A program made the translations under genes and the position numbers. Of a stretch of 6,252 bases of DNA, positions 1,634-2,683 are shown piece after piece. Below the pieces are notes generated by a model that did not search any database, was not told the origin of the DNA, and saw only the letters and a list, made by a program, of their open reading frames with translations. Position 1 is the first letter of the stretch. Every line of letters starts with the position of its first letter. The DNA comes from a virus (Duplodnaviria > Heunggongvirae > Uroviricota > Caudoviricetes): IMG/VR virus record IMGVR_UViG_2698536307_000011. One strand, given 5' to 3'.

Positions 1634-2683
1634 GTGCGGGTATTACTTCGACCTGTTCCGGTACCGGAACTTGGGCTGGTGGTCCTTAAGCCGGGCCGTG
1701 AATCCATGCAGGTATTTCATAACCCTCGAGTGCTGGTGGAGCCGGAACCAAAAAGCATGCGCGGTCTGCCGTCCGGAGTCGTTCCTGCCGTTCGCCAGCC
1801 GCTGGCGGAGGATAAATCATTACTGCCATTTTTCAGCGATGAGCGGGTGATTCGTGCTGCTGGCGGCGCTGGTGCACTGTCTGACTGGCTGTTGCGTCAT
1901 GTCAAATCCTGCCAGTGGCCTCATGGTGACTATCATCACAGTGAAACCGTCATACATCGTTACGGTACCGGCGCGATGGTGTTGTGCTGGCACTGCGACA
2001 ACCAGCTGCGTGACCAGACCTCTGAATCACTCGGGCAACTTGCTCATCAAAACCTGTCAGCATGGATGATTGACGTCATACGCCATGCAATGAATGGCAC
2101 ACAGGAGCGGGAATTATCTCTGGCTGAATTATCCTGGTGGGCGGTCCGCAATCAGGTGGCGGACGCGCTACCGGAAGCTGTATTACGTCGTTCACTGGGG
2201 TTGCGTGCGGAAAAAATCCGCTCCTTGTACCGCGAAAGCGACATCGTACCGGGAGAGCAGACCGCCACCAGCATACTGAAGCAGCGCACAAAAAATCTTG
2301 CGCCGTTGCTTCACACCCACCAGCCACAGAACCCAGCACAGGAAAAGGCGGTGGTCAGCATTACCGTTGATCCGGAGTCTCCGGAATCTTTCATGAGGCG
2401 ACCTAAACGTCGCCGTTGGGTAAATGAGAAATATACGAGCTGGGTGAAGACACAGCCGTGTGCGTGTTGTGGTCAGCCAGCCGACGATCCCCATCACCTG
2501 ATTGGTCACGGTCAGGGAGGGATGGGAACAAAATCCCACGATATTTTCACGCTACCGCTGTGTCGGGAGCATCACAACGAGCTTCATGCGGATCCGCTGG
2601 CGTTCGAAGAAAAGCATGGTTCCCAGATTGATTTAATTTTTCGTTTTCTTGATCACGCCTTTGCAACCGGCGTGCTCGGGTAA
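1634..2683 (+). CDS. DUF968 / YdfU-like prophage protein (349 aa, GTG start) with a C-terminal Cys/His-rich HNH-like motif
   Basis: Length equals the 349 aa I recall for K-12 YdfU. C-terminal segment CACCGQPADDPHHLIGHGQGGMGTKSHDIFTLPLCREHHNELH (about 2459-2590) looks like an HNH/His-Me finger. Position immediately upstream of rusA is typical of lambdoid nin-like regions. Confidence 0.8.
   Translation: MRVLLRPVPVPELGLVVLKPGRESMQVFHNPRVLVEPEPKSMRGLPSGVVPAVRQPLAEDKSLLPFFSDERVIRAAGGAGALSDWLLRHVKSCQWPHGDYHHSETVIHRYGTGAMVLCWHCDNQLRDQTSESLGQLAHQNLSAWMIDVIRHAMNGTQERELSLAELSWWAVRNQVADALPEAVLRRSLGLRAEKIRSLYRESDIVPGEQTATSILKQRTKNLAPLLHTHQPQNPAQEKAVVSITVDPESPESFMRRPKRRRWVNEKYTSWVKTQPCACCGQPADDPHHLIGHGQGGMGTKSHDIFTLPLCREHHNELHADPLAFEEKHGSQIDLIFRFLDHAFATGVLG

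What the first reader, a model, noticed from the sequence alone, without database searches (positions are those of the whole stretch)
2459..2590. HNH-like Cys/His motif at the C-terminus of the DUF968 protein adjacent to rusA
The segment CACCGQPADDPHHLIGHGQGGMGTKSHDIFTLPLCREHHNELH has the spacing of an HNH/His-Me finger (Cys pair, HH, GG, Asn, Cys, His). A nuclease domain beside a Holliday-junction resolvase would suggest a role in DNA processing or replication for a protein usually annotated only as DUF968.
Basis: inference. Interest (0 to 1): 0.4.

Follow-up and report, generated by a model that had tools for sequence, protein, structure and literature searches.

The report
Prophage DUF968 protein's HNH nuclease domain
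The Cys/His motif is real and forms a typical HNH (His-Me finger) nuclease domain at the end of a common E. coli prophage protein next to the RusA resolvase, but this assignment has been in the literature since 2017, so the finding is correct and ordinary.

Summary
Window 2459-2590 encodes residues 276-319 of a 349-aa ORF (1634-2683) that matches Pfam DUF968 at E 8e-77. The gene sits in a tightly packed operon with rusA and the Q antiterminator of an E. coli lambdoid prophage.

- An AlphaFold2 model (pLDDT 90) gives a beta-beta-alpha core.
- The core is 37% identical (E 4e-10) to the HNH domain of phage PhiNM1 Gp16, an experimentally shown RecA-stimulated nickase, and shares C-x2-C...H...CREHHNExH with it.
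- H287, H288, H314 and H318 are kept in about 90% or more of 50%-identity representatives, and D303 in 99%.

It is not new. Jablonska et al. 2017 placed DUF968/YdfU with YbcO in His-Me finger group 7, noted the RusA and Q neighbours, and proposed a recombination role. PHROG 96 already reads "HNH endonuclease". No biochemistry on this family was found.

One side result may be new. The unannotated N-terminal domain has a conserved four-ligand zinc-type site and may be a second, degenerate HNH-like module. That evidence is weak.

The parts
1634..2683 (+). Complete DUF968 (YdfU-type) gene, 349 aa plus stop codon. GTG start with a GGAGG Shine-Dalgarno at 1625-1629.
   Evidence: ORF list, sequence, RefSeq annotation WP_001265301.1, Pfam DUF968 E 8e-77. 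The N-terminal residues from position 1 are conserved in P1 PdcB and Vibrio homologues.
2459..2587 (+). HNH / His-Me finger core, residues 276-318. Predicted structural zinc ligands: C276, C279, C310, H313. Strand 1 carries H287 and H288. D303 is near-invariant. The helix carries H314 and H318.
   Evidence: Translation. AF2 secondary structure: strands 285-288 and 306-309, helix 311-319. Conservation. Alignment to Gp16, Ref and YbcO.
2381..2680 (+). Whole C-terminal nuclease domain, residues about 250-349. It includes the conserved basic RPKxxRW segment (P257, K258), helix 265-272, the beta-beta-alpha core and two C-terminal helices.
2318..2353 (+). Predicted disordered linker, residues 229-240, between the N-terminal/middle part and the nuclease domain. 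Its length varies among homologues.
   Evidence: pLDDT below 50 for residues 229-240. Indel-rich columns in the alignment.
2111..2317 (+). Middle helical region, residues 160-228, with the ELxWWA...LPE motif. This is the first part of the Pfam DUF968 model. Function unknown.
   Evidence: The Pfam match starts at residue 160. Helices 163-172, 181-187 and 211-219.
1634..2098 (+). N-terminal domain, residues 1-155. No Pfam family covers it; it matches PHROG 11007 (unknown function). It holds a predicted zinc module at residues 79-126 (nt 1868-2011) with ligand positions C93, H101 (H or C in homologues), C118 and C121 (C or H), followed by conserved D122-N123.
2696..3055 (+). rusA-family Holliday-junction resolvase gene, 119 aa, starting 12 nt after the DUF968 stop codon.
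   Evidence: Pfam RusA E 3e-15, PHROG 34 E 2e-55. RefSeq annotation.
3052..3741 (+). Q antiterminator gene. Its ATG overlaps the rusA stop codon (ATGA at 3052-3055), so this is the last gene of the same tightly packed operon.
   Evidence: Pfam Phage_antiter_Q E 1e-92. Sequence. RefSeq coordinates.

Best explanation
Residues about 250-349 of this lambdoid-prophage protein form a zinc-stabilised HNH (His-Me finger, beta-beta-alpha-metal) nuclease domain.

Inferred chemistry, by analogy with colicin E9, Ref and Gp16:
- A CCCH zinc site (C276, C279, C310, H313) holds the hairpin against the helix.
- H288, at the end of strand 1, acts as the general base.
- H287, H314 and H318 hold the catalytic divalent metal.
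- The near-invariant D303 fills the structural role of the HNH Asn.

Inferred biology:
- The protein is made from the delayed-early nin-type operon together with RusA, just before Q.
- It most likely nicks or cleaves branched or RecA-bound DNA (D-loops, stalled forks, recombination intermediates) during phage replication and recombination.
- In this it would resemble its closest characterised relatives, P1 Ref and PhiNM1 Gp16, and would occupy the genome position that NinG/Rap holds in lambda.

Shown here: the fold, the homology, residue conservation and the gene context. Inferred: catalytic activity, substrate, and any dependence on RecA.
For: - Family: Pfam DUF968 E 8e-77 and PHROG 96 'HNH endonuclease' E 1e-174.
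- Model: AF2 mean pLDDT 90.1, with strand 285-288, strand 306-309 and helix 311-319.
- Sequence link to YbcO: hhalign probability 82%, E 1e-5.
- Sequence link to PhiNM1 Gp16: BLASTP E 4e-10, 37% identity over 59 aa, with the identical CREHHNE segment. Gp16 itself scores above the Pfam DUF968 cut-off (29.1 against 27.8 bits) and is an experimentally shown nickase stimulated by RecA (PMC12817073).
- Ref shares LPLCRWHH and is a RecA-dependent HNH nuclease (PMC3973344).
- Conservation among 50%-identity representatives: H287 85/92, H288 87/92, D303 88/89, H314 75/83, H318 74/80, C276 82/85.
- C279 and C310 are lost together in the Vibrio Pel-like subgroup, as expected for ligands of one zinc site.
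- Context: a tightly packed operon of DUF968, rusA and Q. RusA lies within 4 kb in 7 of 13 DUF968 clades, on either side.
- Independent published classification and hypothesis: PMC5714182.
Against: - No nuclease assay exists for any YdfU-type DUF968 protein in the searched literature.
- The canonical HNH Asn is absent.
- Sequence matches to HNHc_6 and RecA_dep_nuc fall below Pfam's thresholds.
- A PdcB-like subgroup has lost all the histidines yet persists, so some function of the family does not need catalysis.
- RusA linkage is absent in 6 of 13 clades and may only reflect shared residence in the nin region.
- RecA dependence is pure analogy.
- In Gp16, the equivalent of H288 (H157A) had no growth phenotype.
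Confidence: 0.7

Rival explanations
1. The domain is a catalytically silent zinc-finger module. The protein would act only as a DNA- or protein-binding factor, for example a regulator or recombination mediator, not as a nuclease.
For: The PdcB-like subgroup (P1 PdcB, P0205, P0224, P0254) keeps CxxC...CxxC and D303 but has lost H287, H288, H314 and H318, so the scaffold can be retained without the catalytic residues. Some GenBank records label the gene 'antitermination protein Q' (H11 and H19). No biochemistry is available.
Against: In this protein, and in about 90% of representatives, all four histidines are intact. The closest relatives, Ref and Gp16, are active nucleases. The 'Q' labels look like annotation errors, because the true Q gene lies downstream.
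Confidence: 0.1
2. It is an active HNH nuclease aimed mainly at the host chromosome or at competing mobile elements (host takeover, anti-defence, or superinfection exclusion), not at the phage's own recombination intermediates.
For: PhiNM1 Gp16, which shares the HNH core, suppresses host replication and condenses the nucleoid. P1 Ref increases ciprofloxacin lethality to the host (PMC4713147 abstract).
Against: No match to any PADLOC defence model. The gene keeps a conserved place among recombination and replication genes, with recurrent RusA linkage. Published fusions of the domain are to Erf, Rad52 and RusA (PMC4118853 and PMC5714182). This rival overlaps the best explanation, since RecA-guided cutting could serve both ends.
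Confidence: 0.15
3. It is a terminase-associated HNH (HK97 gp74 type) or a free-standing homing endonuclease.
Against: The gene lies about 9 kb upstream of the terminase genes, in the early region before Q. The same position is kept across Escherichia, Shigella, Klebsiella, Yersinia and Vibrio phages, which is not how a mobile homing gene behaves. No NUMOD- or AP2-type DNA-binding modules were found.
Confidence: 0.03

Closest known systems
Pfam DUF968 (PF06147), YdfU of the E. coli Qin prophage; His-Me finger group 7 of Jablonska et al. 2017
   Same: The protein is a full-length member (257.5 bits). It has the same C-terminal Cys/His core and the same RusA and Q neighbours described in the paper.
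   Different: Nothing substantive. This copy is one of thousands of near-identical E. coli prophage alleles: the cluster at 95% identity has 4842 members.
YbcO of the DLP12 prophage / phage 82 (Pfam PF07102 'Putative nuclease YbcO', PDB 3g27)
   Different: YbcO is a 96-aa single domain with no N-terminal or middle regions. It has AH instead of HH, and CSACH (a CCCC-type zinc site) instead of CREHH. There is no direct Pfam cross-hit.
Bacteriophage P1 Ref, the RecA-dependent HNH nuclease (Pfam RecA_dep_nuc, PDB 3plw)
   Different: Pfam RecA_dep_nuc scores only 13.4 bits against a cut-off of 26.9. Ref has a disordered basic N-terminus rather than folded N-terminal domains, and its third metal-binding His (H153) comes from a later segment. 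RecA dependence is untested for DUF968.
Staphylococcus phage PhiNM1 Gp16 and PhiETA Orf20 (Pfam HNHc_6, PF16784)
   Same: The HNH core is clearly homologous (BLASTP E 4e-10, identical CREHHNE). Gp16 also passes the DUF968 threshold. It was shown experimentally to be a nickase enhanced by RecA, with the zinc-site mutants C148A, C181A and H184A inactive.
   Different: Gp16 has an N-terminal NinB/Orf-like domain that this protein lacks. The window protein scores 22.4 bits on HNHc_6, below the 26.6 cut-off. The host phylum and gene neighbourhood differ, although PhiNM1 also encodes a RusA about 3 kb away.
Lambda NinG/Rap (Pfam PF05766), a structure-specific endonuclease of the nin region
   Same: Also predicted to be a His-Me finger nuclease. 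By established knowledge of the lambda map, it occupies the equivalent position just upstream of Q and acts on D-loops and Holliday junctions.
   Different: No sequence or profile match was found here. The resemblance is one of position and function only.

Membership tests
His-Me finger / HNH (beta-beta-alpha-metal) superfamily | A beta-hairpin followed by an alpha-helix that together form the metal site, with fold similarity to solved HNH nucleases. | tested here: met
   [not shown]
His-Me finger / HNH (beta-beta-alpha-metal) superfamily | A conserved general-base His at the end of strand 1. | tested here: met
   H287 and H288 lie on strand 1. They are conserved in 85/92 and 87/92 representatives. 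H288 aligns with the single His of YbcO and with H157 of Gp16.
His-Me finger / HNH (beta-beta-alpha-metal) superfamily | A metal-binding His or Asn on the helix (the last H of H-N-H). | tested here: met
   H314 (75/83) and H318 (74/80) are spaced H-x3-H on helix 311-319 and align with Gp16 H185 and H189.
His-Me finger / HNH (beta-beta-alpha-metal) superfamily | The structural Asn (the 'N' of HNH) in the loop or strand before the helix. | tested here: inconclusive
There is no conserved Asn.
His-Me finger / HNH (beta-beta-alpha-metal) superfamily | Divalent-metal-dependent nuclease activity. | not testable with these tools
   No assay for YdfU-type proteins was found in the searched literature. 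The relatives Ref and Gp16 are active.
Pfam DUF968 (PF06147) | A score above the curated gathering threshold of 27.8 bits. | tested here: met
   257.5 bits, E 8.3e-77, profile positions 1-171 of 171.
Pfam HNHc_6 (PF16784; Orf/NinB-like domain plus HNH) | A score above 26.6 bits and the N-terminal Orf-like domain. | tested here: not met
   22.4 bits, with only profile positions 123-174 matched. The N-terminal domain gives no such hit.
RecA-dependent nucleases (Pfam RecA_dep_nuc PF16786, P1 Ref) | A score above 26.9 bits. | tested here: not met
   13.4 bits, E 0.087, although Ref is the best structural match.
RecA-dependent nucleases (Pfam RecA_dep_nuc PF16786, P1 Ref) | Cleavage that requires or is stimulated by RecA filaments. 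| not testable with these tools
   Inferred only by analogy with Ref and Gp16.
YbcO / DUF1364 (PF07102) | A Pfam match to the family model. | tested here: not met
   [not shown]
Known anti-phage defence systems (PADLOC) | A match to any defence-protein model. | tested here: not met
   0 families at E up to 0.01.

The most novel reading that the evidence does not exclude
YdfU-type DUF968 proteins may be two-module 'pseudo-dimeric' HNH proteins. In this reading, the Pfam-unannotated N-terminal domain (residues about 79-155) is a diverged duplicate of the C-terminal His-Me finger. It would have kept a four-ligand zinc site (C93, H/C101, C118, C/H121) but replaced the catalytic histidines (D122 in place of H314, R126 in place of H318). 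It could then serve as the DNA-structure or RecA-recognition module that directs the single active HNH site to nick recombination intermediates ahead of RusA. Catalytically dead PdcB-type relatives would retain only the binding role.
Probability: 0.3. Interest if true: 0.4.

Novelty: already known. Interest (0 to 1): 0.15.

Why it matters
DUF968/YdfU genes sit in thousands of E. coli, Shigella, Klebsiella, Yersinia and Vibrio prophages, including Stx-phage relatives, and are still released by RefSeq as 'DUF968 domain-containing protein'. Recognising the C-terminus as an intact HNH nuclease, most similar to the RecA-guided nucleases Ref and Gp16, gives a concrete hypothesis to test: a RecA- or structure-directed nickase working with RusA in phage recombination and replication. 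It also argues for a better product name. As a discovery it adds little, because the classification, the neighbours and the hypothesis were published in 2017 and PHROGs already carries the label. The possible new point is the nature of the N-terminal zinc module.

Tried and rejected
- NCBIfam has no model for the protein. PADLOC gave nothing.
It was rerun with A3.
With A1 it returned only relatives at 85% identity or more, so three more scans with distant queries were run to get context diversity.
- A literature search for 'YbcO' was swamped by papers on the YBCO superconductor. A two-term search failed on term length.
- Metagenomic proteins that join the N-domain to tail-fibre, tip-attachment, capsid or portal sequences were first considered as evidence of domain mobility. 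I rejected this. The fusion partners are late structural genes of the same prophages and most clusters are singletons, so they are most likely assembly or gene-calling chimeras.

Full report
**What is in the window.** The 6252-bp window is 99.8% identical to chromosomal prophage DNA in many E. coli genomes, and 516 of 5426 genomes carry at least 80% of it. In strain C3 it lies in a lambdoid prophage integrated next to a tRNA-Ser gene, between the dicA/dicC immunity region and the lysis and terminase genes.

The gene order in the window, is:
- hok/sok (482-806);
- two small ORFs of unknown function (1024-1287 and 1354-1632);
- the DUF968 ORF (1634-2683);
- rusA (2696-3055);
- Q (3052-3741);
- three tRNA genes (3943-4192);
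- a TerB-family pseudogene, a DUF3927 gene and a SASA-family esterase.

The DUF968 gene starts with GTG, 4 nt after a GGAGG and 1 nt after the stop codon of the preceding ORF. rusA starts 12 nt after the DUF968 stop codon, and the Q start overlaps the rusA stop (ATGA). The three genes are therefore one tightly packed, probably translationally coupled unit.

**Checking the observation.** Window 2459-2590 translates exactly to the quoted peptide, which is residues 276-319 of the 349-aa protein. The protein matches Pfam DUF968 over residues 160-346 at E 8.3e-77, and the next ORF matches RusA at E 3e-15.

**Is it an HNH / His-Me finger?** Four independent lines agree.

*Profiles.* PHROG 96, annotated 'HNH endonuclease', matches the full length at E 1e-174. 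Pfam HNHc_6 (E 1e-4) and RecA_dep_nuc (E 0.087) match residues 268-319 below their thresholds. Many close homologues carry a precomputed HNHc_6 hit. A profile of the C-domain from 35 diverse homologues aligns with the sequence of YbcO (PDB 3g27) at 82% probability, E 1e-5.

- EcoKMcrA and ScoMcrA;
- the GVE2 and Gme HNH nucleases and several Cas9 HNH domains.

*A characterised homologue.* Staphylococcus phage PhiNM1 Gp16 (L008:4052-4720) aligns with the C-domain at BLASTP E 4e-10, 37% identity over 59 residues. It shares C-x2-C-G-x-P, the strand-1 His and an identical CREHHNE segment. Gp16 itself scores above the DUF968 gathering threshold (29.1 against 27.8 bits). Xu et al. 2026 (PMC12817073) showed that Gp16 nicks DNA, is enhanced by RecA, and loses function when the zinc ligands C148, C181 and H184 are mutated. 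P1 Ref shares CxxC...HH...LPLCRWHH and is a RecA-dependent HNH nuclease that cuts D-loops (PMC3973344).

*Conservation.* Counts are over the 50%-identity representatives that cover each site:

| Residue | Conserved |
|---|---|
| H287 | 85/92 |
| H288 | 87/92 |
| D303 | 88/89 |
| H314 | 75/83 |
| H318 | 74/80 |
| C276 | 82/85 |
| C279 | 71/89 |
| C310 | 73/85 |
| position 313 | H in 43, C in 22, of 83 |

C279 and C310 are lost together in the Vibrio phage Pel-like subgroup, as expected if they bind the same zinc ion.

The one correction concerns N315: it is variable (D 31, N 18, R 10) and is not the HNH Asn. D303 is the near-invariant residue in that part of the fold.

**Residue roles.** These are inferred, not tested. 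By analogy with colicin E9 (H102, H103, H127, H131, as discussed for Ref) and with the Gp16 mutagenesis:
- C276, C279, C310 and H313 form the structural CCCH zinc site.
- H288 is the general base.
- H287, H314 and H318 bind the catalytic metal.

**Context and likely role.** The gene lies immediately upstream of Q in phages of Shigella (SfIV), Klebsiella, Yersinia and Vibrio. I scanned 125 loci that fall into 13 DUF968 clades, using a RusA HMM built in-session. A RusA gene lay within 4 kb in 7 clades. It was directly downstream in the window's own clade (65 of 81 loci) and in one other clade, directly upstream in two clades, and upstream with one intervening gene in three. The linkage is recurrent but not obligatory, and it could simply reflect shared residence in the nin region.

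Curtis et al. 2014 (PMC4118853) and Jablonska et al. 2017 report fusions of the domain to Erf, Rad52 and RusA. No PADLOC defence model matches.

The best-supported reading is an HNH nickase or endonuclease that acts on recombination or replication intermediates, possibly guided by RecA as in Ref and Gp16. It would be expressed with RusA from the delayed-early operon and would occupy the position that NinG/Rap holds in lambda.

**What is already known.** Jablonska et al. 2017 (PMC5714182) place DUF968 and DUF1364 together as His-Me finger group 7. [quoted passage not shown] Their text implies that DUF968 was already in the Pfam His-Me_finger clan. PHROGs labels the family HNH endonuclease. I found no biochemical study of YdfU, YbcO or PdcB in the searchable literature. 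The finding is correct, but already known as a prediction.

**Beyond the finding: the N-terminal domain.** Residues 1-155 are not covered by any Pfam model. Across 39 diverse homologues four positions always hold a zinc-type ligand, with H/C swaps between homologues: C93, position 101 (H or C), C118 and position 121 (C or H). Conserved D122-N123 follows.

AF2 (pLDDT 88 for the domain modelled alone) predicts helix 79-89, hairpin 105-110/113-118 and helix 119-125. This is the same order of elements as in the C-terminal domain.

The evidence that this is a second HNH-like module is mixed:
- Foldseek finds nothing significant.
- hhalign of the N profile against the C profile gives a colinear 74-column alignment pairing C93 with C279, H101 with H288, C118 with C310, C121 with H313 and D122 with H314. 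Its score is 17.0, against 10.5 +/- 2.1 for 200 column shuffles, and 2 of the 200 reach the real score.

This is suggestive of a degenerate, non-catalytic duplicate of the HNH module, but it is not established.

**Other subgroup behaviour.** P1 PdcB and its relatives (P0205, P0224, P0254) keep both CxxC knuckles and D303 but have lost H287, H288, H314 and H318 and the GHGxGGMG loop. They are probably inactive, which shows that the scaffold has a function beyond catalysis.

**Verdict.** Novelty is 'already known' and interest is low. The remaining open questions are biochemical (activity, substrate, RecA dependence) and structural (the nature of the N-terminal zinc module).

Noticed in passing
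[not shown]
   Followed up: partly
L002:2905-3945 (phage P1 pdcB); also P0205, P0224, P0254: P1 PdcB is a full-length DUF968 homologue (27% identity). It has lost all four catalytic or metal-binding histidines and the GHGxGGMG loop, but keeps CxxC...CxxC and the near-invariant Asp. It is probably a catalytically dead paralogue in a phage that also encodes the active HNH nuclease Ref.
   Followed up: partly
L004:3926-4930 (Vibrio phage Pel) and relatives P0160, P0178, P0212: In this subgroup C279 (replaced by T) and C310 (replaced by H, R or S) are lost together while the catalytic histidines remain. The HNH core seems to work there without the CCCH zinc site.
   Followed up: no
L008:4052-4720 (Staphylococcus phage PhiNM1 gp16): Gp16, the experimentally characterised RecA-stimulated nickase (Pfam HNHc_6), also scores above the Pfam DUF968 gathering threshold (29.1 against 27.8 bits). 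This gives the 'domain of unknown function' an experimentally studied member.
   Followed up: yes
H11 (Escherichia phage Evi, LR597642.1) and H19 (phage 1720a-02, KF030445.1): In these GenBank records the DUF968 gene is annotated 'antitermination protein Q'. This is almost certainly a mislabel carried over from the neighbouring gene.
   Followed up: no
P0191, P0193, P0144, P0172, P0125 (metagenome and assembly proteins): These proteins join the DUF968 N-terminal 150-300 residues to tail-fibre, tip-attachment J, capsid or portal domains. They look like assembly or gene-calling chimeras across prophage repeats, not real fusions.
   Followed up: partly
window 482-806: A complete hok/sok type I toxin-antitoxin locus: an Rfam sok match at 114 bits (482-656) and a HokD ORF with Pfam HOK_GEF at E 3e-23 (651-806 in RefSeq coordinates).
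   Followed up: no
window 3943-4192 and 4375-5135: Three tRNA genes (CAT, which RefSeq annotates as Ile, then Arg-TCG and Arg-TCT) lie directly downstream of Q, as I recall is the layout in Stx-converting phages. Where those phages carry stx, as I recall, this prophage has a TerB-family pseudogene, a DUF3927 ORF and an Rfam STnc100 sRNA match (100.8 bits, 4963-5135), ahead of a SASA-family esterase.
   Followed up: no
window 1024-1287 and 1354-1632: Two small co-directional ORFs upstream of the DUF968 gene match only PHROGs of unknown function (phrog_340 and phrog_1212). The second ends 1 nt before the DUF968 GTG start, so it may be translationally coupled to it.
   Followed up: no
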